64,000 bases of DNA, taken from positions 143,656-207,655 of the forward strand of contig JACRFK010000003.1 in the NCBI GenBank assembly GCA_016217925.1. Direction: 5' to 3'. The position numbers were made by a program, and so were the translations under genes. The notes under the pieces are model-generated. The model saw only the letters and a list, made by a program, of their open reading frames with translations. It was not told the origin of the DNA and did not search any database. Source of the stretch: Candidatus Kaiserbacteria bacterium (GTDB taxonomy: Bacteria; Patescibacteriota; Minisyncoccia; Phycocordibacterales; UBA2100). This document shows, one piece after another, positions 1-49,380 of the stretch; the stretch's first letter is position 1, and the number at the start of each line of letters is the position of its first letter.

Positions 1-269
1 GTCTACGAAAATATCGCGTGTGTCGTAACGGTCTTCCGGAAGCGCCGCGAGCATCGCCGCACCCGTTTTGAGCGAAAGGTCATATTCACTCGATGTCCCT
101 CCGCGCAAAATACCGACGCTCGTGCGTGCCATCCGAAAATTATACCATCCGTTTGCGTTGTCGAGTCCGGTGCCACGTAATGTCGCTACACTCCTTGGAA
201 ACCCACGGTTTCCAACGCTCGCTTTGCTCGCTGCTTTCCGTCACGGGGAACTCCCGTTCCCCGACCCCC

Positions 270-1789: not shown

Positions 1790-2860
1790 ATGAAATTGAT
1801 ACTCAAAGACGGTACGGTGTTCGAAGGGCAAAGCTTTGGTGCCCCCAAAAGTACCGCCGGCGAAGTGGTTTTTAATACCGGAATGACGGGATACGTCGAG
1901 AGCCTTTCTGACCCTTCGTACGCGGGACAAATCGTCGTCCTCACCTACCCGCTCGTGGGCAACTACGGCGTACCCGACAAGAAGTATTTTGAATCAAATA
2001 AGATGCAGATAGCGGGGCTAGTGGTCTCCGAATATTCGGAAAACTACTCACATCACGACGCAAAGGGGTCGCTCGCCGAGTGGCTCAAGTCTTCCGGCGT
2101 ACCCGCGATAACGGGCGTGGACACCCGCGCGCTCACCAAGCGCCTGCGCGAGCACGGGGTGATGTTAGGCGCGCTTAGCGTCAATCCCGCCAAGGGCGGG
2201 ACGAGGTTCACCGACCCAAATGACGAAAATCTCGTCGCCCGCGTGAGCATCAAAAAGAAAAAGACCTACGGCAACGGGCCGGTGAAAATAATCGCCGTTG
2301 ACTGCGGCATGAAAGAAAACATCGTTCGCGCGCTCACGCGACCCGAGACTACGGTCATCCGTGTACCGTGGGATTATGACTTCACCGAAGACAAGTACGA
2401 CGCGCTCTTTATTTCCAACGGCCCCGGCGACCCGACGCAATGCTGGATAACAATCGAACATATCAAGCACGCGATGTCTGCGGACAAGCCGATACTGGGG
2501 ATCTGCCTCGGTAATCAACTACTTGCACTCGCTGCAGGGGCAAAAACGTACAAGCTTAAGTACGGTCACAGAGGTCAAAACCAACCCTGCATAGATCTTG
2601 AGAACGGGCGCTGCTACATCACCTCACAAAATCACGGCTTCGCCGTGGACGGCAAAACACTCCCCGACGGATGGGGAGAATGGTTCGTGAATGCGAACGA
2701 CGGAAGCAACGAAGGTGTGCGGCACAAGACGAGGCCGTGGCGCTCGGTGCAATTCCACCCCGAAGCCTCCCCCGGACCCACCGACACCGCGTGGATATTC
2801 GATGAATTCATCGCCGCGTTGAGCAAGTCAGACCCGCACAAAAAGAAAACGTATGAATAA
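1790..2860 (+). CDS. carA: Carbamoyl-phosphate synthase small subunit (glutamine amidotransferase)
   Basis: 356 aa. CarA N-terminal domain, and GATase triad region GICLGNQLLALAAGAKTYKLKYGHRGQNQP. Confidence 0.9.
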   Translation: MKLILKDGTVFEGQSFGAPKSTAGEVVFNTGMTGYVESLSDPSYAGQIVVLTYPLVGNYGVPDKKYFESNKMQIAGLVVSEYSENYSHHDAKGSLAEWLKSSGVPAITGVDTRALTKRLREHGVMLGALSVNPAKGGTRFTDPNDENLVARVSIKKKKTYGNGPVKIIAVDCGMKENIVRALTRPETTVIRVPWDYDFTEDKYDALFISNGPGDPTQCWITIEHIKHAMSADKPILGICLGNQLLALAAGAKTYKLKYGHRGQNQPCIDLENGRCYITSQNHGFAVDGKTLPDGWGEWFVNANDGSNEGVRHKTRPWRSVQFHPEASPGPTDTAWIFDEFIAALSKSDPHKKKTYE

Positions 2861-5800
2861 AGTCCGCAAGGTGCTGCTGTTGGGTTCGGGGGGCCTTCGC
2901 ATCGGTCAGGCGGGTGAGTTTGATTACTCCGGCTCGCAGGCTATCAAGGCGCTCAAAGAGGAGGGTGTCAAAGTCGTACTGATGAATCCGAATATCGCAA
3001 CGGTGCAGACGGATGATAAGCTCGCGGACACCGTGTACTTTCTCCCCCTCACAGAACACTTCGCAACGCAGGTGATAAAGAAAGAAAAGCCCGATGCCAT
3101 ATTGCTCTCCTTCGGCGGGCAGACGGCTCTCAATCTCGGACTCTCGCTCGAAGAGCGCGGAGTCTTGAAAAAGTACAGCGTACGCGTACTCGGCACATCG
3201 GTCGCCACTATCCGCGACACCGAGGACCGCGAGCTATTTGTGCGACGTCTTTCGGAAATCGGTGTAAAGACCGCGCAAAGTCGGGCGACAGAAAATGTAC
3301 GAGACGCACTGAAAGCCGCGGGCGAGATAGGCTACCCGGTAATGATGCGTTCGGGCTTTGCACTCGGCGGTGAAGGGTCGGGAGTCGTTCACAACGAGAA
3401 GGAATTATCTGTGAAGCTAACGGAGGTGTTCAGGAACGTACCGCAGGTTCTCATCGAGGAAAACCTGAGCGGCTGGAAAGAGGTCGAATACGAAGTGGTG
3501 CGCGACCGCGCCGACAACTGCATCACGGTGTGCAATATGGAAAATCTCGATCCGATGGGCATTCATACAGGCGAGAGCATCGTCGTCGCGCCGTCGCAGA
3601 CGCTATCGAATGCCGAGTATCACGGACTTCGCGAGATAGCGATTAAAACGATACGCCACTTGGGAATTGTCGGAGAATGCAACATCCAGTATGCCCTTCA
3701 TCCGCAGACAGGTGACTACCGCGTCATCGAGGTGAACGCCCGCCTCTCGCGCTCTTCCGCGCTCGCATCGAAAGCCACAGGATATCCGCTCGCCTTCGTG
3801 GCCGCCAAGCTCGCGCTCGGATACAAGCTCACCGATATCAAGAATTCAGTCACTGGCAAAACGACTGCCTGCTTCGAGCCCGCACTCGATTACCTCGTCC
3901 TCAAAGCCCCACGCTGGGACCTGACAAAATTCGAGAACGCGGCACCTCGCATCGGTACCGAAATGAAAAGCGTCGGAGAGGTCATGGCCATTGGCCGCTC
4001 TTTCGAAGAAGTGCTGCAAAAAGCGCTTCGCATGCTCAACGTCGGCGTAGACGGATTCGTGCCCGCAAAAAACCCTTGTCCGAAAACCCGGTATTTGGAC
4101 GAAATACAGTACCCGACGACTCGTCGCATCTTTGCGCTCGCGGAAGCGCTGCACGACGGCGTCAATGTGGCCAAGCTGCACGACCTATCCAAAATTGACC
4201 CGTGGTTTCTGGAAAAGATGGGCAATATCGTCGGACTGGAACGTGAACTTAAGAGAAAGAAGTTGACCAAAGAGCTACTCGCACGCGCAAAACGCGCGGG
4301 ATTCTCCGATAAGCGCATTGGAACGTTGAAGAAAACGACTGAAGTGGCCGTCCGCTCTCTCCGCGCGCGCTTGCACGTGTTACCCGTCGTCAAACAGATA
4401 GACACACTTGCGGGTGAATTCCCCGCACAGACCAATTACCTGTACATGACCTACCACGGCACCGAAAACGATGTTGCGCGCGGAAAAAATCAGGTTGCCG
4501 TTTTGGGAAGCGGCCCGTATTGCATCGGCTCATCAGTCGAATTCGATTGGTCCTGCGTACAGGCGCTCAAAACTTTGAAGGCGGAAGGGCGCAACACCAT
4601 CATGATCAATTCCAACCCCGAGACCGTTTCGACCGATTACGACATGTCCGACCGGCTGTATTTCGAGGAACTTTCGCTTGAGCGCGTACTCGACATTGTC
4701 GATTTTGAGCGACCTCTCGGCGTCGTTATCTCAACCGGCGGCCAGATACCCAACAATCTCGCACTTCCGCTGCAGCGCAACAAGGTCAGAATTCTCGGCA
4801 CGGACCCGCAAAATATCAACCGTGCCGAAGACCGTCACGTATTCTCCAAATTGCTCGACGAGCTCGGTATTGACCAGCCCGAGTGGGCGGAACTCACCAC
4901 TCCCGCAGCAGCGGCGAAAGCGGCCGAGAAACTCGGCTACCCGGTCCTCGTGCGTCCCTCATACGTCCTCTCGGGTGCCGCGATGAAGGTGGCCTATGAT
5001 GAGAAATCTTTGCTTGAATTCCTTCAGCGCGCCGTTGACGTATCGTCCGACCACCCCGTTGTGATTTCAAAATTCATCGAGAACGCGCGCGAGATAGAAA
5101 TAGACGGCGTGGCACACAAGGGCGCGCTCGCAATCTACGCCATTACCGAACACATCGAAAATGCCGGCACGCACTCGGGCGACGCCACCGTGGTATTGCC
5201 GCCCCAGCGCACCTACCTCGAGACCATCCGGCGCGCCAAGCACATCACGAAGGATATTTTGAAGGCGCTGAAGATTACCGGCCCCTTCAATATGCAATTC
5301 ATCGCCAAAGACAATCACCTGCTTGTCATCGAGTGTAATCTGCGCGCCTCGCGCAGTTTCCCGTTCGTCTCAAAAGTGACGGGACACAATTTCATCAACC
5401 TCGCGGTACGCGCCATGCTAGGCAAAGATATCGCCGGCCACTATCGGACCGTCGAGCTTGATACCGTCGCCGTGAAATCGCCGCAATTTTCCTACGGCCG
5501 CATCAAGGGGGCCGACCCGCACACGAGCGTGGAGATGGCCTCGACTGGCGAAGTGGCGTGTTTCGGCGATTCCTATTCCGAGGCACTTCTCAAATCTATG
5601 ATGGCCGCGGGTTTCCGTTTGCCGAAGAAGAACGTACTTGTATCTCTCGGCAAAGAGGAGAATAAGATCAAGATGCTGCCGGCTGTAGCCGTGCTCGCCA
5701 ATATGGGATTCAAGCTCTACGCGACCGAGCACACGGCGGATTTTCTGCGCGAGAACAACATCCCGTGCGAGAAAGTCTATAAGATAAGTTCAAATATTGC

Positions 5801-6116
5801 GCCCAACGTCTCGGGGCTGTTCGAGGGCGGCGAGCTTGACCTCATCATCAACATCCCTACGAAGGGGCGCGAGAACACGACAGACGGCTTCACCATCCGC
5901 CGCAAGGCGATTGATATGAATATTCCGCTTATCACCAACCGCCAACTCGCCGAAGCCTTCATAACGGCGCTTGCGGAACAGAAAGCGGAGCGAAGCGGAG
6001 TCCCGCACCAAAAGCCAAAGAAGAAACACATTGGCACTTCAAAAGAGAATGGTAAGCTTTTTGGTGCTGGGAGATACGGACTGGAAGCGAAATCGTGGGA
6101 AGAATATCGTTCATAG
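2853..6116 (+). CDS. carB: Carbamoyl-phosphate synthase large subunit
   Basis: 1087 aa. Two ATP-grasp halves, oligomerisation domain and MGS-like domain. Start overlaps the carA stop by 8 nt. Confidence 0.95.
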   Translation: MNKVRKVLLLGSGGLRIGQAGEFDYSGSQAIKALKEEGVKVVLMNPNIATVQTDDKLADTVYFLPLTEHFATQVIKKEKPDAILLSFGGQTALNLGLSLEERGVLKKYSVRVLGTSVATIRDTEDRELFVRRLSEIGVKTAQSRATENVRDALKAAGEIGYPVMMRSGFALGGEGSGVVHNEKELSVKLTEVFRNVPQVLIEENLSGWKEVEYEVVRDRADNCITVCNMENLDPMGIHTGESIVVAPSQTLSNAEYHGLREIAIKTIRHLGIVGECNIQYALHPQTGDYRVIEVNARLSRSSALASKATGYPLAFVAAKLALGYKLTDIKNSVTGKTTACFEPALDYLVLKAPRWDLTKFENAAPRIGTEMKSVGEVMAIGRSFEEVLQKALRMLNVGVDGFVPAKNPCPKTRYLDEIQYPTTRRIFALAEALHDGVNVAKLHDLSKIDPWFLEKMGNIVGLERELKRKKLTKELLARAKRAGFSDKRIGTLKKTTEVAVRSLRARLHVLPVVKQIDTLAGEFPAQTNYLYMTYHGTENDVARGKNQVAVLGSGPYCIGSSVEFDWSCVQALKTLKAEGRNTIMINSNPETVSTDYDMSDRLYFEELSLERVLDIVDFERPLGVVISTGGQIPNNLALPLQRNKVRILGTDPQNINRAEDRHVFSKLLDELGIDQPEWAELTTPAAAAKAAEKLGYPVLVRPSYVLSGAAMKVAYDEKSLLEFLQRAVDVSSDHPVVISKFIENAREIEIDGVAHKGALAIYAITEHIENAGTHSGDATVVLPPQRTYLETIRRAKHITKDILKALKITGPFNMQFIAKDNHLLVIECNLRASRSFPFVSKVTGHNFINLAVRAMLGKDIAGHYRTVELDTVAVKSPQFSYGRIKGADPHTSVEMASTGEVACFGDSYSEALLKSMMAAGFRLPKKNVLVSLGKEENKIKMLPAVAVLANMGFKLYATEHTADFLRENNIPCEKVYKISSNIAPNVSGLFEGGELDLIINIPTKGRENTTDGFTIRRKAIDMNIPLITNRQLAEAFITALAEQKAERSGVPHQKPKKKHIGTSKENGKLFGAGRYGLEAKSWEEYRS

Positions 6117-6446
6117 AAAAGGAGCGGGAGGGGGGACGCGTGTTACCGACGCAATACAAAACGCAAAACTGATGAGTCCCCCTCCCTCTGCGCCTTTACG
6201 GCACAATCTCGCATTGGCGGATACCCTCAGGGTCCGCGACACAATGCGAACACGAACACAACGTACACAACTGACGCAACGCTACAACATCCCTTACTAG
6301 GGATCGCGGAGTGCGAAGTCCCCTTCGCTTCAACCGCCTCACGGATATTCCGGATTACGTCCGGAGGTCCGTGGAGTCCGCCGAAAGACTTAGCTGGGCA
6401 GCGAAGCTATCGACGGAGTGAAAGGTATGTATACATTATTTGGAGG

Positions 6447-6575
6447 ATTTCTTCAACATTCTCTTCAAATAGTACCCCGTGTGAGAGCCGTCGGTCTTTG
6501 AGACTTCTTGGGGTGTACTCTTAGCAACCAAGTGAGATGGTCGATACTTTGATAATGACACCATTTAGTTTGATG
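6447..6575 (-). pseudogene. Diverged duplicate of the uvrA 3' end (remnant ORF, 42 codons)
   Basis: Minus-strand translation is [42 protein letters not shown]. The real UvrA C-terminus, encoded at 7543-7640, is [32 protein letters not shown] 25-nt core gagccgtcggtctttgagacttctt is identical in both copies. Confidence 0.6.
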
Positions 6576-6631
6576 TAGAATATAAAAAGCAGCGCCGCTT
6601 TGCCTATGTTGGGGCAAAGCGGCGAGAGTTG

Positions 6632-7426
6632 CTACCAGAGCCTAGTAGCACCGATTTTCTTGAAGAACGCCTCTCTCGGGTCTTCCCGAGGTGGAGGTTC
6701 GCAGCCGAACGCAAATGCGACGTCTAGCCGATTCCACCAGGATTCCCGATTCACGTTGAGGCAGGTGAACATGTTATCGTAGAAGTCCGGCCCCCCGCCA
6801 CAGTATGTGTGCACTCCGATGGCTAGCACGACAAGCTGTTGCTCGGACAAAGGAAACGGGTCGTGGAACCCGGCAATTTTGGAACCGCTAAGGCCATAAC
6901 GCCCTGTCCCTATGATGCGTTCGACTTGGAACGGCATCAATTGATGACGTAGACGCGGCATGATGCCTGCGGGAAGTTTCTTGTAGCCAAAGTTATCCAC
7001 GGCAGCCTCCACGCAGGAGAAATCGGACTTGTCGTTCGAAGTCTCTTTGCATGGAATGTCTGCGCCGGGGACAATCGCTATGTAATAATCCTTCCCCGGC
7101 TCCAAGATATGCCCGCCGTTGCTCAAGTGACGTTCGAGCGCATGTTGAGCATAGCTATCAGCCCTTTCTTTTGGGGCGTATCCGGCGGCTCGGAGGAGTT
7201 CTAGCTCCTTTGCTCCGTCAAGACCGAGGCCTCTGACGGTCAACATGAGATGCCCGTGTTCGTTATATTCGAACATCGACGGACCCCAGCAGGGTTGGCG
7301 TTTGACGAACTTCTTCAATTCCGTAAGTGCCTCCTCGCCGTCGTCTGCGGCGAGAAGATCGTCAAGGGCGCCTTTCGGTCCGCGCACTCGGCGGAGCGAA
7401 AGTGTTCCGAGCATACCTTTCGGCAT
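6632..7426 (-). CDS. Hypothetical protein, 264 aa, no recognisable domain
   Basis: Intact ORF. Consensus SD AAGGAG sits 7 nt upstream of the ATG. Extended -10 promoter lies immediately after the uvrA stop. The gene sits between the duplicated uvrA 3' ends. Confidence 0.6.
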   Translation of the reverse strand: MPKGMLGTLSLRRVRGPKGALDDLLAADDGEEALTELKKFVKRQPCWGPSMFEYNEHGHLMLTVRGLGLDGAKELELLRAAGYAPKERADSYAQHALERHLSNGGHILEPGKDYYIAIVPGADIPCKETSNDKSDFSCVEAAVDNFGYKKLPAGIMPRLRHQLMPFQVERIIGTGRYGLSGSKIAGFHDPFPLSEQQLVVLAIGVHTYCGGGPDFYDNMFTCLNVNRESWWNRLDVAFAFGCEPPPREDPREAFFKKIGATRLW

Positions 7427-7500
7427 GGTCGTTCTCCTTGTTTTGATTTCAACGAGCGGTCATGAAATGCGAGCGAATCTCGAATCCCACCGCAACGGTG

Positions 7501-7530
7501 CATTATATCATGATGTCATAAAAAAGCAAG
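7501..7530 (-). promoter_or_regulatory. Sigma70-like promoter TTGCTT-N17-TGaTATAAT for the 264-aa gene
   Basis: Reverse complement reads cttgcttttttatgacatcatgatataatg. It begins right after the uvrA stop codon at 7543-7545. Confidence 0.55.
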
Positions 7531-7542
7531 AGCTTCACAAGT

Positions 7543-10287
7543 TTATTTAATCATCCTTTTCTTCAATGTGCGTTTCAAGTAGTATCCCGTATGCGAGCCG
7601 TCGGTCTTTGAGACTTCTTCGGGTGTGCCCTTTGCTACGATTTTTCCGCCTCCTGCTCCCCCTTCGGGCCCCATGTCGATGATGTAATCGGCGCATTTCA
7701 AGACGTCGAGATTGTGCTCGATAGCTATCACGGTATTGCCGCGTTCGACAAGCTTCTGGAGAATATCTACAAGCTTTGCGACGTCGTCATAGTGGAGTCC
7801 GACCGTCGGCTCGTCGAGCAGGTAGACGCTTTTTGTAATGAGCGGACGGTAGAGCTCGGACGCGATTTTCACGCGCTGCGCTTCTCCGCCGGAGAGCGTC
7901 GTCGCACTTTGACCGAGTTCCAGATATCCGAGCCCGACGTCAATAAGGCTTTGCATTCTATCGGATACCGCAGGTATATCTTCGAAAAACGCGTACGCTT
8001 CCTCGACGGTCATGGAGAGCACATCGTGAATACTCTTTTTCTTGTACTTCACTTCGAGCGTCTCCTTCATAAAGCGCTTCCCGTTGCACACATCGCAGGT
8101 CACGTACACGGTCGGCAAAAAGTGCATCTCGACTGCGACAAGCCCATTGCCTTGGCATGCCTCGCACCGTCCGCCTTTCACGTTGAAAGAGAAGCGCCCG
8201 GGCCCCCAACCGCGCGCCCGCGCCTCTTCGCTCATGGCAAACATGTCGCGGATATGTGTCCACGCCCCCGTGTAGGTCGCTGGATTGCTGCGCGGGGTGC
8301 GGCCGATTGCGGATTGGTCTATCAAAATCGCCCGCCCGAGGTACTCGGTGCCCGAGAATTCTTTTGCGTTGTAGATTTTGGCGGTGCGATATCGTTTGTC
8401 GAAACGCGCCTGCAAATTGCGGTGAAGGATTTCGTAGAGAAATGTAGACTTTCCCGAGCCGGAAACACCCGAAACAACGACAAACTTTCCGAGCGGTACA
8501 TCCACGTTGAGATTTTCGATATTGAACTTCCCCGCGCCGCGTATTTTGATCTTGCCTCGGTCGGCGGTACGTCGCGTTTCGGGAATCTCAATCCTTATTT
8601 CATCCCTCAAATATTGCAACGTCCGTGAGACGTGCGCGCCTGCCCCGTAGGAAGCTTTGCTTTCCTTCGGGGAGCCGGATTTGTTGGTTTTAGCGGTGAG
8701 CAAGTCTTCAAGCCACCCATCCACAACCACTTCCCCGCCGTGTACGCCCGCACCGGGGCCGAGGTCAACGATGTAATCCGAAGCAAAAATGGTGTCTTCG
8801 TCGTGTTCAACGACGAGAACGGTGTTGCCGAGGTCGCGTAAGTGTTTCAACGTCTCGATGAGCTTGTCGTTGTCGCGCTGATGCAAGCCGATTGTCGGCT
8901 CGTCGAGCACATAGAGCGCGCCCACAAGCCCCGAGCCGAGCTGTGAGGCAAGCCGGATGCGTTGCGCCTCACCGCCCGACAAGGTATTCGCCTTTCTATC
9001 CAGCGTCAGGTATTCGATGCCCACATTGAGCATGAACTGCAGGCGCGAAGTTATCTCCTTGATGACAACGCGGGAAATGTCTTGTTCTTTTTTCGTGAGT
9101 TTCAGTTTGTTGAAAAAGTCCATCGCATCTTCGATTGAAAGGGACGAGAGATGTACGATGTTCATGCCCGTGGCCGGACCGTCGTTACTCTCCGGTTGCT
9201 TCACGTGTCCGAGAAATACATTTAGTGTTTCCGGTCGAAGACGCGCGCCCTCACAGACGTCGCATGCCTCATCGCCAAAGAAATATTTCGTCCCCAACCC
9301 TTTGCACTCCGGGCACGCGCCGTAGGGTGAGTTGAAGGAGAAGAGGCGCGGTTCAATTTCAGGAAATGAAAAGCTGTCGTACGGACACATGAATTTGGCC
9401 GAGACGATACGGGACTCCCCCGCCGCGTCGGTAATTTTTACCAATCCTTCGCTCTCGTGCAGCGCGCGCTCGATAGCCTCCGATGCGCGCTCATGCGCGG
9501 CTTTGGCGTCGTCCGCAAATTCAGAGACGAATATTTCGTCAACGACAATATCAATGTCGTGCTTGAAATGCTTCTTGAGGTCGACGCGCTCGCGGAGTGA
9601 CTTTTCCTCACCGTCTATAACGGCCTTCTCGTACCCTTTGTTGAGCATGTCGTAAAGGAGCTGGTAGTATTCTCCTTTCCGACCAACTACCACGGGAGAC
9701 GATATCCGTATCTTCGCTCCTGAAACTCCCGCTGTCAGCTTTCCTTTTCCCCGAGAACCGACCTCTGTGCTTTTCCCCGAGGTCGGTTCTCTGTGCTTTC
9801 GAGCCGCTTCGACGATGGAAAGCACCGATTCCAGTATCTCTTCGTTGGAAAGTTTGCGGACCTCACGGCCGCAAATCGTGCAGTGCGGCTTGCCCACACG
9901 CGCGTACAGCACGCGGAGGTAGTCGTAAATCTCGGTGATGGTCGCGACCGTCGAGCGCGGGTTGTTGGAGCGGGATTTTTGGTCTATTGAAATTGCGGGT
10001 GAAAGTCCCGTTATCTCGTCCACATCGGGCTTTTGCATTTGGCGTAAAAACTGCCTTGCGTATGCGGAAAGCGATTCCACGTACTTGCGCTGGCCCTCGG
10101 CAAAAATGGTATCAAAAGCAAGCGAAGACTTCCCGCTTCCGGAAAGCCCCGTGAAAACGACCATCTTGTTGCGTGGTATCTCAACACTGATGTTCTTCAG
10201 GTTGTGTGTCCGCGCCCCTTTGATGACGATTTTACCTGCCCCGACCGTAGCGTCGGGGTCTGAACCTTGTCTTCTTGAATTTGGCAT
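7543..10287 (-). CDS. uvrA: Excinuclease ABC subunit A
   Basis: Two ABC ATPase modules with zinc-finger insertions and conserved UvrA blocks throughout. The listed ORF extends to 10473, but the conserved N-terminus begins at MPNSRRQG...[15 protein letters not shown], so the start is probably near 10287. Confidence 0.9.
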
Positions 10288-10400
10288 ATATAGTTCCGAC
10301 CCCCGCTTTGCGCTAGGGGTTAGTATGGGGGATTGTATCAGAAACAGGAAGGGACCGCGATGTGCGGCCCCACTCCACTTTTCATTCTCCGACGCGGCGA

Positions 10401-10763
10401 TCATTCCGGCGTGGACAGCGCAAGCTTGTGCCACGGGATGACGTGACTTCTTCCACGCAGGAAGACGATGCATCCTTCCTCGCCTTCGTGATAGTTGCGC
10501 CGGCGATGTTCGTAGTCCTCCCGGTCGGGCACCCTCCCGACGAGAGCGGCCGGAAAATTTTCGTGCATGTACAGCAGATAGACTTTCTCGCCGTACGGCG
10601 GTCCATCCGAGCCCGTAAGGGCACGGGGGTCCGAAGGCGGGGGCGTAAATCGATAGTCGGCCGCACTGCGATTCCTTGCTGCACGACGACCGCGACCCGA
10701 ACGTCCGGCATCCGCATAGAAGTTACCCAAACCTGTCGATCTTCTCATGACACAACCCTCCAA
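10401..10763 (-). CDS. Hypothetical small protein, about 120 aa, Arg-rich N-terminus
   Basis: GGAGGG sits 7 nt upstream of the ATG at 10763. It lies downstream of the terminator of the 335-aa gene. An extended -10 TGaTACAAT for uvrA lies beyond it. Sequence is GC-rich and shows no recognisable domain. Confidence 0.35.
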
Positions 10764-47426: not shown

Positions 47427-47484
47427 AGTAGACCAACAATACGCTCATTAGGGCGGCTAGCAAGCCACACATTCCAGAGGTTTA

Positions 47485-47515
47485 AAAAGCACATAGGTCG
47501 GTTCTCTGTGCTTTT
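47485..47515. repeat. Hairpin repeat, copy 2
   Basis: aaaagcacaTAGGTCGGTTCTCtgtgctttt. Lies between the PKD gene stop and the collagen-like gene start. Confidence 0.6.
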
Positions 47516-47532
47516 CGGCCCTTTCCCGTCTT

Positions 47533-48306
47533 TTATCTCGATGTGTCGACCAGTAGAACGCCTGTCGCAAGTACGAGGGCGATTCTCGCGTCGGAGATGA
47601 TGACGGTGTAGGTGCCGTTTTCTAATTTGACGCCTGCGTCAGCAACCGTCGCGGACCAACGACCGCCCACGACCAAAAATCCTCCCGAATACCGCCACAC
47701 GTAGTCCTGTGAAGCCTTGTCTATCGGCGAAGGCACGGTCACGCGGCCTTTCTTTATCCGCACTTCGATATCGGCGTTCTGGACTGTGCCCGAAAGCGTC
47801 GGATTAGCGGAATTCGTCGTAAGGGATTTTTGGTCAATCGTCGCAAAAGCGCTACCTGCCGTCGGTTTATAAACGGTAAATGTTACCCATTTCCCTGTTC
47901 CCTGCCATTCCGAACTGTTCCCCGCGCCTTTTCCAATCAGTTGAGCAGAGTAAACGCCCGGCATCGTGTACGCGTGAGTGACGCGGCACAACGAATCAGT
48001 GGGTCCTGCGAGAGGAGTACAAGTCATTGTGCCGAAGCCGGTCCCATCGCCAAAGTCGACAGCGAATGTCCCGGCGAGAGCGGCGGTGCGCTGTTGAAAT
48101 ACAACACTCAGTGGCGCAAGTCCCGATATAGGCGACGCTGTAAATGTTGGTGAAGGCGTGACGACGCTCTCGGTTTGCAGTTGTTGCAACTTGGCTAGGA
48201 TCGACTGTATTTGGGCTTGCAAATCGCTCACCATATCAGCCGACGCAACGACCGGTGATGCGAGGAGAAGTACACTGAGACTGGCGAATGCAAGCTTTCG
48301 AATCAT
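47533..48306 (-). CDS. Secreted protein with PKD-like domain
   Basis: Signal peptide MIRKLAFASLSVLLLASPVVASA. PKD-type motifs PLSVVFQ and FAVDFGDGTG. Confidence 0.65.
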   Translation of the reverse strand: MIRKLAFASLSVLLLASPVVASADMVSDLQAQIQSILAKLQQLQTESVVTPSPTFTASPISGLAPLSVVFQQRTAALAGTFAVDFGDGTGFGTMTCTPLAGPTDSLCRVTHAYTMPGVYSAQLIGKGAGNSSEWQGTGKWVTFTVYKPTAGSAFATIDQKSLTTNSANPTLSGTVQNADIEVRIKKGRVTVPSPIDKASQDYVWRYSGGFLVVGGRWSATVADAGVKLENGTYTVIISDARIALVLATGVLLVDTSR

Positions 48307-48383
48307 GAATGAAATGACGCTAAGGTAATATGAAAATGCTAACACCAGTTTCCCAATTGTCTATGACGTTCGGTGTTGTTCGA

Positions 48384-48413
48384 AAAAGCACATAGGTCGG
48401 TTCTCTGTGTTTT
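48384..48413. repeat. Hairpin repeat, copy 3, with a slightly degenerate 3' arm
   Basis: aaaagcacaTAGGTCGGTTCTCtgtgtttt. Overlaps the obg stop codon. Confidence 0.55.
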
Positions 48414-49380
48414 ACAAACCTTTTTCGTCCTTAATTTTGTTGAGTATCTTTTTTACCTGTTCGAGACTCTCGGTTTCGAGTATTGATATCGCAAGAGGTT
48501 TGAGGCCGGCTTTTTTCAACGCCGCCAGTTTTTCTTCCACTTCCTCGGGCGTGAGCATGTCGGACTTTGTGAGGAATACGTGCTCGACTTTTTTTGTGAG
48601 CTCCGGGTTGTACGTCTCCAATTCTTTGCGGATGATTTTATGATCGCGCACGACGTCGTCGGATTCGGCGTCTATCAAATGGAACAGCACTTTCGTGCGT
48701 TCAATGTGCTTGAGGAATTTGACGCCAAGCCCCTTACCGCCCGAAGCGCCTTCGATGATGCCCGGGATGTCGGCGAGAATGACGCCGTAATACGAGCCGA
48801 GGTGCGGCTCCAGTGTCGTGAAAGGATAATTCGCGACGCGACTCTTGGCGGCGGTGAGCTCATTCAAGAGGCTCGATTTACCTGCATTGGGTAGCCCCAC
48901 GAATCCGACATCGGCGATGAGACGCAGTTCGAGCTTGTATGTCGCTTCATCGCCCTTTGTGCCGTCCTCATGTTCCATCGGCGTCGTGTTGGTCGCCGAG
49001 CGGAACTTGAAATTGCCCCTGCCGCCTACCCCACCGCCTGCCGCAAGGACACGCTGCCCGACCTCCGCTATTTCCTGTTTGAATCCGGTCCCCAGATTGG
49101 TGACCGTGGTCCCCGTCGGCACTTTCAGCACCATGTCCTCGCCTCTCCGGCCGTCGAGAAATTGCCCGCGGCCGTCCCTTCCGCGTTCGGCCTCCACTTC
49201 CTGCCTGCTCGCAAATACCATCAGCGCATTGATATCGCCGGTCCCTTCGAAGTACACGCTGCCGCCGGTACCGCCGTCTGCGCCCGTAGGGCCCCGTGAA
49301 AGCTTGACCTTATTGAAAGCAACGGCGCCATTGCCGCCGTCGCCCGCTTTGACCTTGATTGTCAGCTCATCTATAAGCAT
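48412..49380 (-). CDS. obg: GTPase Obg/CgtA
   Basis: Gly-rich Obg fold at the N-terminus, G1 GLPNAGKSSLL, and a G domain. Confidence 0.9.
   Translation of the reverse strand: MLIDELTIKVKAGDGGNGAVAFNKVKLSRGPTGADGGTGGSVYFEGTGDINALMVFASRQEVEAERGRDGRGQFLDGRRGEDMVLKVPTGTTVTNLGTGFKQEIAEVGQRVLAAGGGVGGRGNFKFRSATNTTPMEHEDGTKGDEATYKLELRLIADVGFVGLPNAGKSSLLNELTAAKSRVANYPFTTLEPHLGSYYGVILADIPGIIEGASGGKGLGVKFLKHIERTKVLFHLIDAESDDVVRDHKIIRKELETYNPELTKKVEHVFLTKSDMLTPEEVEEKLAALKKAGLKPLAISILETESLEQVKKILNKIKDEKGL

What the first reader, a model, noticed from the sequence alone, without database searches (positions are those of the whole stretch)
6447..7545. Diverged duplicate of the uvrA 3' end brackets a single-gene insertion next to uvrA
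On the minus strand the order is uvrA, then a 264-aa unknown gene, then a 42-codon remnant ending [30 protein letters not shown]. The remnant copies the last 27-30 aa of UvrA, with a 25/25-nt identical core gagccgtcggtctttgagacttctt.

Direct repeats of a gene's 3' end flanking about 1 kb of foreign DNA are the signature of site-specific integration that reconstitutes the target gene end, as seen in att-type islands. Alternatively they could be the last trace of a second uvrA paralogue.

The divergence (about 75% identity outside the core) indicates an old event. The cargo has been reduced to one gene with its own strong promoter.
Basis: seen in the sequence. Interest (0 to 1): 0.6.

Follow-up and report, generated by a model that had tools for sequence, protein, structure and literature searches.

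The report
Stranded old uvrA end beside inserted gene
A small gene from a related bacterium was spliced in just behind the DNA-repair gene uvrA together with a substitute gene end, leaving the original end stranded; relatives show this happening repeatedly at the same spot, with no integrase found in any insert.

Summary
An 81-nt direct repeat (6448-6528 / 7558-7638, 83% identical, exact 25-nt run) brackets a 264-aa gene downstream of uvrA in a Candidatus Kaiserbacteria (CPR) genome.

The 42-codon remnant is the original uvrA 3' end. Its tail (KKSSK*), the TGTATACAT after its stop and the spacer to carB are colinear with an empty-site relative (L081). The live uvrA end came in with the insert from another lineage (pN/pS 0.14; 0.11 pooled over five such remnants).

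The att/integrase mechanism is not supported:
- No recombinase domain was found in any tested insert ORF or in 20 other window ORFs.
- Remnant 5' limits vary from about -42 to -170 nt.
- No exact core is shared between events.
- carB 3' ends leave mirror-image remnants.
- Some remnants have almost no cargo.

The uvrA2-relic alternative is rejected.

The best explanation is integrase-independent insertion of relatives' DNA, anchored by homology in uvrA and closed by an illegitimate join, at a permissive junction between convergent genes. One relative (L020) carries an array of three uvrA remnants and one carB remnant. The cargo has an unknown function and no fold match. Interest is moderate.

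The parts
7543..10473 (-). uvrA, intact. The annotated ORF start is probably about 60 codons too far upstream.
   Evidence: ORF; ABC_tran, UvrA_inter domains.
7543..7638 (-). Live uvrA 3' end, made of repeat copy 7558-7638 plus a new tail RMIK* (7543-7557). It is xenologous to the remnant and was brought in with the insert.
   Evidence: The tail and the downstream sequence differ from the empty-site relative L081; pS 0.53, pN 0.07.
7595..7619 (.). Exact 25-nt run shared with 6485-6509 (codons EEVSKTDGS). It could be the crossover interval of a homologous exchange, or simply conservation.
   Evidence: a run of at least 25 nt occurs in 1.5% of comparable orthologous pairs.
7502..7529 (-). Putative promoter of the cargo gene: TTGCTT, 16 nt, TGaTATAAT. 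An AAGGAGAA ribosome-binding site follows at about 7432-7439.
   Evidence: Read from the sequence. Not listed by the consensus scan. The RBS/start region is conserved with L161, L163 and L164.
6632..7426 (-). Cargo gene p264 (264 aa; NCBI HY971_00960, hypothetical protein). It consists of a conserved N-terminal ~50-aa module plus an uncharacterised alpha/beta domain. It is not a recombinase by any test run.
6593..6624 (-). Intrinsic terminator of p264: 12-bp stem followed by a T-rich tail.
6529..6592 (-). Right-hand end of the inserted DNA, of unknown origin. The junction with resident DNA lies between 6529 and 6528.
   Evidence: homology to uvrA stops at 6528-6531.
6436..6528 (-). Stranded original uvrA 3' end: the last 30 codons and the stop, with tail KKSSK*. 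It lies inside the mechanical 42-codon ORF 6436..6564.
   Evidence: The same tail and the same TGTATACAT after the stop are found in the empty-site relative L081 and in the L083 remnant.
6117..6435 (.). Resident uvrA-carB intergenic spacer, colinear with the spacer of the empty-site relative.
   Evidence: 6248-6175 and 6140-6076 match L081 1832-1905 and 1918-1981 at 83-88%; no Rfam hit.
2853..6116 (+). carB, the convergent neighbour, intact.
   Evidence: (conserved convergent partner of uvrA in 62 loci).

Best explanation
The 42-codon ORF is the original 3' end of uvrA, stranded when at least 1.03 kb of DNA from another Kaiserbacteria lineage was recombined into the uvrA|carB junction.

**What came in.** The incoming piece carried that lineage's own uvrA 3' end, followed by a self-contained gene with its own promoter, 264-aa ORF and terminator.

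**How it joined (inferred).** On the uvrA side it joined by homologous recombination. The exchange happened either somewhere upstream in uvrA or inside the 25-nt identical run. On the carB side it was closed by an illegitimate join 93 nt before the resident stop codon. The resident end (VAK...KKSSK*) and its native spacer were therefore pushed downstream intact, and both essential genes kept complete reading frames. No element-encoded recombinase is involved.

**Why here (inferred).** Two conserved genes meet tail to tail at this site, and in many relatives their stop codons overlap. An insertion there is tolerated only if it brings a substitute gene end. Only short duplicates are expected to survive repeat-mediated deletion.

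**Shown versus inferred.**
- Shown: the remnant is native; the two copies are xenologous; insertions recur with different cargo; remnant limits vary; carB leaves mirror-image remnants; no recombinase domain was found in any ORF scanned.
- Inferred: uptake of relatives' DNA (for example by natural transformation), and the exact type of join (homology-facilitated illegitimate recombination, or single crossover of a circularised fragment).
For: 1. **The remnant is native.** L081 (UvrA C-terminal half 96% identical) has no insert, and its uvrA ends ...LKKSSK* TGTATACATCTCCG. The window remnant ends ...LKKSSK* TGTATACATACC, and 6427-6076 is colinear with L081's spacer.
2. **The two copies come from different alleles.** Sd 9.5 of 18 synonymous sites against Nd 4.5 of 63 non-synonymous sites, pN/pS 0.14. 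Five independent remnants (window, L083, L127, L020 r2, L039) give pN/pS 0.06-0.14. Pooled P = 4e-13 against in-situ duplication with a neutrally decaying copy.
3. **The site is used repeatedly, with different cargo.**
   - L083: a different 1.2-kb insert, plus the KKSSK* remnant, plus a carB 3' remnant inside the insert.
   - L127: a 2.6-kb insert with MNT/HepT and MazF.
   - L020: five single-gene units separated by three uvrA remnants, each with its own tail, and one carB remnant.
   - L039: a remnant 46 nt after the stop, without cargo.
4. **The spacer length varies widely.** In 62 loci the uvrA-carB spacer runs from -4 nt (overlapping stops, 11 loci) to 3.8 kb.
5. **carB leaves the same kind of remnant.** carB 3' remnants occur in L011, L020, L022, L083, L096 and L116.
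6. **No recombinase signal.** Every insert ORF and window ORF scanned against Pfam lacks an integrase or transposase domain.
7. **No fixed boundary and no shared core**.
8. **uvrA itself is recombinationally mosaic.** L081 and L083 are 92-97% identical upstream of -600 nt and 75-89% identical after it.
9. **Experimental precedent.** In E. coli, DNA carrying only a gene-end homology integrated mostly with a 109-950 bp partial duplication of that gene end (PMC3240628).
Against: - No donor genome was found. p264 is unique at high identity among about 15 billion proteins, so neither junction can be read against its source.
- The homologous left crossover could not be located in the window's uvrA, because the relatives are too distant.
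- The illegitimate join is inferred only from the variable boundaries.
- A 25-nt exact run is somewhat unusual (1.5% of comparable pairs). It would also fit a crossover site used by a recombinase acting in trans.
- Natural competence and RecA activity in this organism were not examined.
- Only 64 kb of a contig of at least 376 kb was visible, so an integrase elsewhere in the genome is not excluded.
Confidence: 0.62

Rival explanations
1. Site-specific (att-type) integration. An integrative element whose attP mimics the last ~27 codons of uvrA was inserted by a tyrosine or serine recombinase. It was later reduced to one gene (a CIME-like relic), or it was mobilised in trans by an integrase encoded elsewhere.
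For: The target gene is reconstituted by an element-borne end, and an empty site exists in L081. An exact 25-nt core sits inside diverged arms. The same gene end is hit repeatedly, and tandem remnants build up as they do in tRNA-targeting island arrays. Three remnants (window, L020 r2, L039) begin within a few codons of K-G-T-P-E-E-V.
Against: - No recombinase domain in any of the roughly 20 insert ORFs scanned, or in 20 other window ORFs.
- Remnant limits range from about -42 to -170 nt.
- The longest shared run lies at a different place in each event and is only 11 nt in L083.
- carB ends are duplicated symmetrically.
- One 'insert' is only 46 nt long (L039).
- The degenerate uvrA-end pattern has no match in 2.9 million viral contigs.
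Confidence: 0.2
2. Local tandem duplication of the uvrA end (a long target-site duplication or replication slippage) at the moment an unrelated gene was inserted, followed by divergence of the two copies in place.
For: In L020, r2 and r3 are almost identical over 84 nt including the terminator. In the window, the obg terminator is duplicated exactly around a 270-aa gene. Some events therefore do look like local duplication or intraspecific exchange.
Against: For the window pair, pS is 0.53 but pN only 0.07. The probability of so few non-synonymous differences, if one copy decayed neutrally, is 0.006; pooled over five remnants it is 4e-13. The live end also has a different tail and a different downstream sequence from the native type.
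Confidence: 0.04
3. Relic of a second uvrA paralogue (uvrA2) that has decayed to its last 30 codons.
For: None beyond the repeat itself.
Against: Only UvrA residues 945-972 match; there is no further similarity in 6117-7542 and no other uvrA-like frame in the window. The remnant's tail and downstream spacer are orthologous to the single uvrA end of L081.
Confidence: 0.01
4. Metagenome assembly chimera that joins two co-occurring strains at the shared uvrA-end sequence.
For: The genome is a metagenome-assembled genome, and the two copies look like alleles from different strains or species.
Against: The same architecture appears in five independent assemblies from different projects, each with a different boundary and different cargo. 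A chimeric path would need real sequence linking the p264 terminator region to the middle of a uvrA end. The remnant is not preceded by any further uvrA sequence.
Confidence: 0.04

Closest known systems
Minimal mobile elements of Neisseria (Saunders & Snyder 2002; Snyder et al. 2007; definition as quoted in PMC3787668)
   Same: Gene content varies between the same two conserved flanking genes among close relatives. No mobility genes are present. Spread is attributed to uptake of DNA and homologous recombination in the flanks.
   Different: Here many events are imprecise and leave a stranded, truncated copy of the flanking gene's 3' end. The flanks are a convergent pair whose stops abut or overlap. 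The organisms are uncultivated CPR bacteria in which transformation is only presumed.
Homology-facilitated illegitimate recombination and single-crossover partial duplication (E. coli lacZ-end experiments, PMC3240628; HFIR in Acinetobacter and pneumococcus, from my own knowledge)
   Same: There is one homologous anchor in a gene end plus a non-homologous closure. In the E. coli experiment most products carried a 109-950 bp duplication of the homologous gene-end segment, of variable length. This is the same anatomy as the 40-170 nt remnants seen here.
   Different: The natural events here use donor DNA about 20% diverged and leave much shorter duplications. The type of join is inferred from comparative anatomy, not observed.
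Integrase-mediated islands that insert into protein-coding genes and restore the gene end (for example dusA-specific integrases, PMC4482086, listed; tRNA/tmRNA islands and their CIME relics, from my own knowledge)
   Same: The insert carries a substitute for the displaced part of the target gene. Direct repeats derived from the target flank the insert. Tandem remnants can accumulate.
   Different: There is no integrase, no constant core or boundary, symmetric use of the neighbouring gene's end, and cargo as small as 0-1 genes.
Morons of lambdoid phages and PeSL cassettes of T4-type phages (from my own knowledge)
   Same: Single genes with their own promoter and terminator sit between conserved genes. 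Repeated terminator or promoter sequences can serve as portable homology, as with L020 r2/r3 and the window's obg terminator pair.
   Different: The context is chromosomal and cellular. The repeat is a piece of a housekeeping gene's coding end, not a dedicated regulatory cassette.

Membership tests
att-type integrative island / CIME (recombinase-mediated) | Integrase or other recombinase gene inside or next to the element | tested here: not met
   p264 has no Pfam, PADLOC or PHROG hit and no fold match. About 20 insert ORFs in relatives have no recombinase domain. Twenty further window ORFs are housekeeping or unassigned. The rest of the genome was not visible.
att-type integrative island / CIME (recombinase-mediated) | Identical core at a constant position in attL/attR across independent insertions | tested here: not met
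   Longest exact runs: window 25 nt (EEVSKTDGS), L083 11 nt, L127 17 nt (CADYII), L020 r2 27 and 22 nt (YYLKKMLKKGKK*), L039 16 nt. They lie at different positions.
att-type integrative island / CIME (recombinase-mediated) | Target gene end reconstituted by the insert; empty site in relatives | tested here: met
   The live end has a new tail RMIK*; L081 is an empty site with the native KKSSK* end.
Minimal mobile element (flank-homology-driven variable region) | Different gene content between the same conserved flanking genes in close relatives | tested here: met
   The uvrA-carB spacer runs from -4 nt to 3.8 kb in 62 loci. Cargo includes p264, MNT/HepT, MazF, HicB-like, NYN, NUDIX, IlvD and unknowns.
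Minimal mobile element (flank-homology-driven variable region) | No associated mobility genes | tested here: met
Minimal mobile element (flank-homology-driven variable region) | Exchange by homologous recombination in the flanks after DNA uptake | tested here: inconclusive
   The evidence is indirect: xenologous uvrA ends and mosaic identity along uvrA between L081 and L083. Uptake and competence cannot be tested here.
HFIR / single-crossover partial duplication | One homologous junction and one illegitimate junction (or a circular single crossover), giving a variable-length duplicate of the anchor | tested here: inconclusive
   Variable-length duplicates of about 40-170 nt are seen and match the experimental products in PMC3240628. 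Without the donor sequence, microhomology at 6528/6529 cannot be read.
Integron gene cassette | intI integrase, attI site and attC recombination sites | tested here: not met
   There is no integrase. The repeats are uvrA coding ends, not attC-like imperfect palindromes of a shared family.
uvrA2 paralogue relic | Decayed uvrA-like frame extending beyond the last 30 codons | tested here: not met
   tblastn of full UvrA against 6117-7542 matches only residues 945-972.

The most novel reading that the evidence does not exclude
In Kaiserbacteria, and perhaps in CPR bacteria generally, the 3' ends and terminators of conserved convergent genes act as reusable docking sites. Single-gene units accrete there one after another without any element-encoded integrase. 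The result is integron-like arrays whose 'growth rings' are stranded gene ends. L020 shows this: five units, three uvrA ends with three different tails, and one carB end. The window adds hints at obg and uvrC. Such accretion could be driven by a dedicated but unrecognised trans-acting nuclease or recombinase, or by a transformation-coupled pathway specific to these reduced genomes.
Probability: 0.12. Interest if true: 0.7.

Novelty: new variant of a known kind. Interest (0 to 1): 0.4.

Why it matters
CPR/Patescibacteria are uncultivated, have tiny genomes and carry few recognisable mobile elements, so how they gain genes is poorly documented.

This locus gives a readable record of gene gain. 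Each event leaves a stranded gene end whose synonymous divergence shows that the donor was another lineage, and the order of the remnants gives the order of events. If general, scanning for stranded 3' ends would be a simple, annotation-free way to map recombination-driven gene gain and its hot spots in uncultivated bacteria.

It would also flag small ORFs such as 6436..6564 as relics rather than genes. For this window alone the practical result is modest: one orphan cargo gene of unknown function and a corrected reading of a 42-codon ORF.

Tried and rejected
- **Phage or element carrying the uvrA end.** A degenerate 41-nt pattern had 0 hits in viral contigs.
- **Donor of the insert.** No relative among 160 uvrA loci encodes p264 or shares the sequence 6529-7557.
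- **Left crossover inside the window's uvrA.** Sliding identity against L081, L082 and L083 was uninformative because these relatives are about 15-20% diverged.
- **Chimeric remnant.** I tested whether the remnant is donor DNA left of the core and native DNA right of it, as a Campbell-type crossover predicts. The segments are too short to decide.
- **Contexts of p264-family genes (L161-L164).** They sit between housekeeping genes, but none shows a stranded neighbour-gene end.
- **Apparent ~600-nt 'insertion' in uvrA of many relatives.** The match spans 1728 nt against 1101 nt in the locus tables. This is most likely an extra alignment piece from the first ABC domain, not an intein or an insertion: L020's UvrA is 890 aa and shows no extra segment when read against the window protein.
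- **Hidden RNA gene.** Rfam found nothing in 5900-7700.
- **Literature.** No paper on integration at the end of uvrA was found.
Full report
**1. Observation**

On the minus strand the order is:
- uvrA (7543..10473);
- a 264-aa ORF (6632..7426);
- a 42-codon ORF (6436..6564) ending [30 protein letters not shown];
- after a 319-nt spacer, the stop codon of the convergent carB (2853..6116, + strand).

An 81-nt direct repeat (6448-6528 / 7558-7638) is 83% identical. It contains an exact 25-nt run (6485-6509 / 7595-7619) that occurs nowhere else in the window; none is expected by chance. A run this long is moderately unusual for homologous uvrA ends of this divergence. Among 852 pairs of orthologous ends that are 78-88% identical, 1.5% have a run of at least 25 nt.

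The organism is a Candidatus Kaiserbacteria bacterium (CPR). The 264-aa protein is NCBI HY971_00960, 'hypothetical protein', on a 376-kb contig.

**2. Which copy is the original?**

I fetched 160 uvrA loci of relatives. The closest, L081 (UvrA C-terminal half 96% identical), has no insert. Its uvrA ends ...LKKSSK* followed by TGTATACATCTCCG, and carB's stop lies 253 nt further on.

The window remnant ends ...LKKSSK* followed by TGTATACATACC. The window spacer (6427-6076) is colinear with L081's spacer at 76-88% identity.

The live uvrA end has a different tail (KKRMIK*) and runs straight into the p264 promoter region, which has no counterpart in any relative.

The remnant is therefore the resident, ancestral 3' end with its native downstream DNA. 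The live end arrived with the insert. The minimal foreign segment is 6529-7557 (1029 nt).

**3. The two copies are alleles from different lineages**

Over the 27 shared codons there are 9.5 synonymous differences on 18 synonymous sites. There are only 4.5 non-synonymous differences on 63 non-synonymous sites (pS 0.53, pN 0.07, ratio 0.14).

If the repeat had arisen in place and one copy had then drifted neutrally, about 65% of the differences should be non-synonymous. The probability of seeing so few is 0.006.

The same holds for four further remnants found in relatives (ratios 0.06-0.12). Pooled, P = 4e-13. The divergence was therefore acquired while both copies were working uvrA ends in separate lineages.

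The three non-synonymous changes of the window remnant (G->S and E->Q in the otherwise invariant GTPEE, and T->M) are the only sign of decay after insertion.

**4. The site is used again and again, with different cargo and different boundaries**

- **L083** (94% identical to the window's UvrA half, same metagenome as L081) has a different 1.2-kb insert. It is followed by the orthologous KKSSK*-TGTATACAT remnant, which starts about 20 nt further upstream (GGGKIVAK...). The insert also contains a remnant of the last ~35 codons of carB.
- **L127** has a 2.6-kb insert with an MNT/HepT pair and a MazF toxin, followed by a 57-codon remnant.
- **L039** has a remnant 46 nt after the live stop, with no gene in between.
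- **L020** has 3.8 kb between uvrA and carB. It holds five single-gene units (a membrane protein, NYN, NUDIX, a small membrane protein, a secreted protein), separated by three uvrA remnants and one carB remnant. The three uvrA remnants start at different codons. The first has its own tail (GKRS*), while the second and third share the tail GKK* and an almost identical terminator. This reads as three successive additions from the uvrA side and one from the carB side, each stranding the gene end that was current at the time.

Across 62 loci with convergent uvrA and carB, the spacer ranges from -4 nt (overlapping stop codons, 11 loci) to 3.8 kb. carB 3' remnants also occur in L011, L022, L096 and L116.

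**5. Tests of the att/integrase reading**

- No recombinase domain was found in p264, in about 20 ORFs of the relatives' inserts, or in 20 further ORFs of the window, most of which are housekeeping genes such as uvrC, murB, tyrS, eno and tgt.
- The remnants' 5' limits lie between about -42 and -170 nt from the stop.
- The longest exact run between the live end and the remnant is at a different place in each event: window 25 nt, L083 11 nt, L127 17 nt, L020 r2 27 and 22 nt, L039 16 nt.
- The neighbouring gene's end is duplicated in the same way.
- A degenerate pattern for the uvrA end finds nothing in 2.9 million viral contigs.

These results do not fit one recombinase acting on one att core. 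A recombinase acting in trans from outside the window cannot be excluded.

The alternative 'relic of a second uvrA' is excluded. Only UvrA residues 945-972 match, and nothing extends beyond 6531.

**6. Most likely mechanism**

DNA from a related lineage containing 'uvrA 3' part - cargo' entered the cell and recombined. Homology in uvrA provided one junction. The other junction was a non-homologous join that happened to fall inside the resident uvrA end.

Such a product is viable because the donor supplies a complete gene end and carB is untouched. Joins further upstream would create long direct repeats that are easily lost again. Joins in the spacer leave no remnant and look like plain gene-content variation, as seen in L011, L021, L022, L088, L125 and L131.

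Supporting observations:
- uvrA is visibly mosaic between L081 and L083: 92-97% identity upstream of -600 nt, 75-89% after it.
- In an E. coli experiment, DNA with homology only to a gene end integrated mostly with a 109-950 bp duplication of that gene end. The authors attributed this to a single crossover with a circularised, partly deleted molecule (PMC3240628).

For the window, the 25-nt exact run would suit such a homologous single crossover. For L083, L039 and L127 the runs are too short, so an upstream anchor plus an illegitimate join fits better.

The steps 'uptake of foreign DNA' and 'type of join' are inferred, not shown.

**7. The cargo**

p264 is a real, foldable protein (AlphaFold2 pLDDT 78, pTM 0.71). 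It belongs to an unannotated family: 108 representatives at E <= 1e-3, and no Pfam hit in the ten members scanned.

It has two parts:
- An N-terminal ~50-residue module (MxKGMLGxLPLSAVRGPK..LD..LAG.DG....ELKKF.R..PCW). This module occurs at 50-70% identity on proteins with unrelated C-terminal parts.
- A domain with the motif N.HGH.V.T..GL.LTG.EE..RL..AGY.

There is no match to solved or viral structures and none to defence or phage families.

The ribosome-binding site and first codons are nearly identical at the DNA level to family members in other genomes. Those members sit singly or in tandem between housekeeping genes. Nothing suggests that p264 promotes its own insertion, and the other events carry unrelated cargo.

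**8. Comparison with known systems, and verdict**

Functionally the locus behaves like a 'minimal mobile element' site of Neisseria (definition in PMC3787668). It carries the added scar of stranded gene ends, as produced experimentally by homology-anchored integration. It resembles integrase-driven islands only in outcome.

It is a new variant of a known kind: a documented, recurrent, apparently integrase-free gene-gain hot spot in CPR bacteria, in which stranded 3' ends record donor divergence and event order.

Interest is moderate (0.4).

Noticed in passing
window 47484-47546 and 48383-48445: A second bracketed single-gene insertion in the same window. The last ~10 codons plus the terminator of the GTPase gene at 48412..49380 (-), which I take to be obg (identified by eye, not scanned), recur after the unrelated 270-aa gene 47533..48345 (-). 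The repeat is 63 nt and 79% identical, and the terminator hairpin is exact. The two proteins are not paralogues.
   Followed up: partly
window 146-181 (minus strand), about 90 nt downstream of the uvrC stop at 270: A possible stranded uvrC 3' end. ITWHRTRQRKRMV* lies downstream of the live end ITWHRSRRRRAMGW*: 8 of 12 residues match, E 1.6e-4 in a single 6-kb search, which is weak after correction for 135 tests. There is no cargo in between, as in L039.
   Followed up: partly
L020 7761-11550: An array of five single-gene units between uvrA and carB. They are separated by three uvrA-end remnants (8464-8506 with tail GKRS*; 9347-9456; 10052-10116) and one carB-end remnant (10554-10628). The second and third uvrA remnants share stop and terminator almost exactly.
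   Followed up: yes
L083 2430-2586 (minus strand): The insert behind uvrA carries a remnant of another lineage's carB 3' end (..ISLITNRQL/EGFITALHEQKGNGLKAKAWSEYQ). The incoming DNA was therefore a piece of a homologous uvrA-carB junction.
   Followed up: yes
L001, L003, L008, L026, L032, L089, L095, L113, L123, L124, L129: In 11 relatives the convergent uvrA and carB reading frames overlap by 4 nt at their stop codons. This is probably the ancestral state. It explains why any insertion here must bring a substitute gene end.
   Followed up: partly
window 7280-7440; L161 4083-5650; L163 584-716: p264 shares an N-terminal ~50-aa module and an almost identical RBS/start region (AAGGAGAACGACCATGCC.AAAGGTATGCTCGGAA) with genes whose C-terminal parts are unrelated. 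In L161, two such genes lie in tandem, each followed by a conserved ~150-nt 3' flank. This is a modular gene family of unknown function in CPR genomes.
   Followed up: partly
window 6126-6187: A long G/C-rich inverted repeat (GGGAGGGGGGAC ... GTCCCCCTCCC) lies directly after the carB stop. It is conserved at 88% with L081. It is probably the carB terminator or a structured element. Rfam gives no hit.
   Followed up: no
L101 5151-5198: A 16-residue copy (81% identical) of the C-terminal ETAALLRDELKTLEAG of the 775-aa gene at 2674-5001 lies 149 nt downstream of that gene. It is another candidate stranded gene end. By eye the motif resembles the UVR motif of UvrB/UvrC; no domain scan was run.
   Followed up: no
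window 10285-10473: The mechanical uvrA ORF (976 aa) probably starts too far upstream. Relatives such as L020 (890 aa) begin near the window's MPNSRRQG..., so the first ~60 codons are likely not translated.
   Followed up: no
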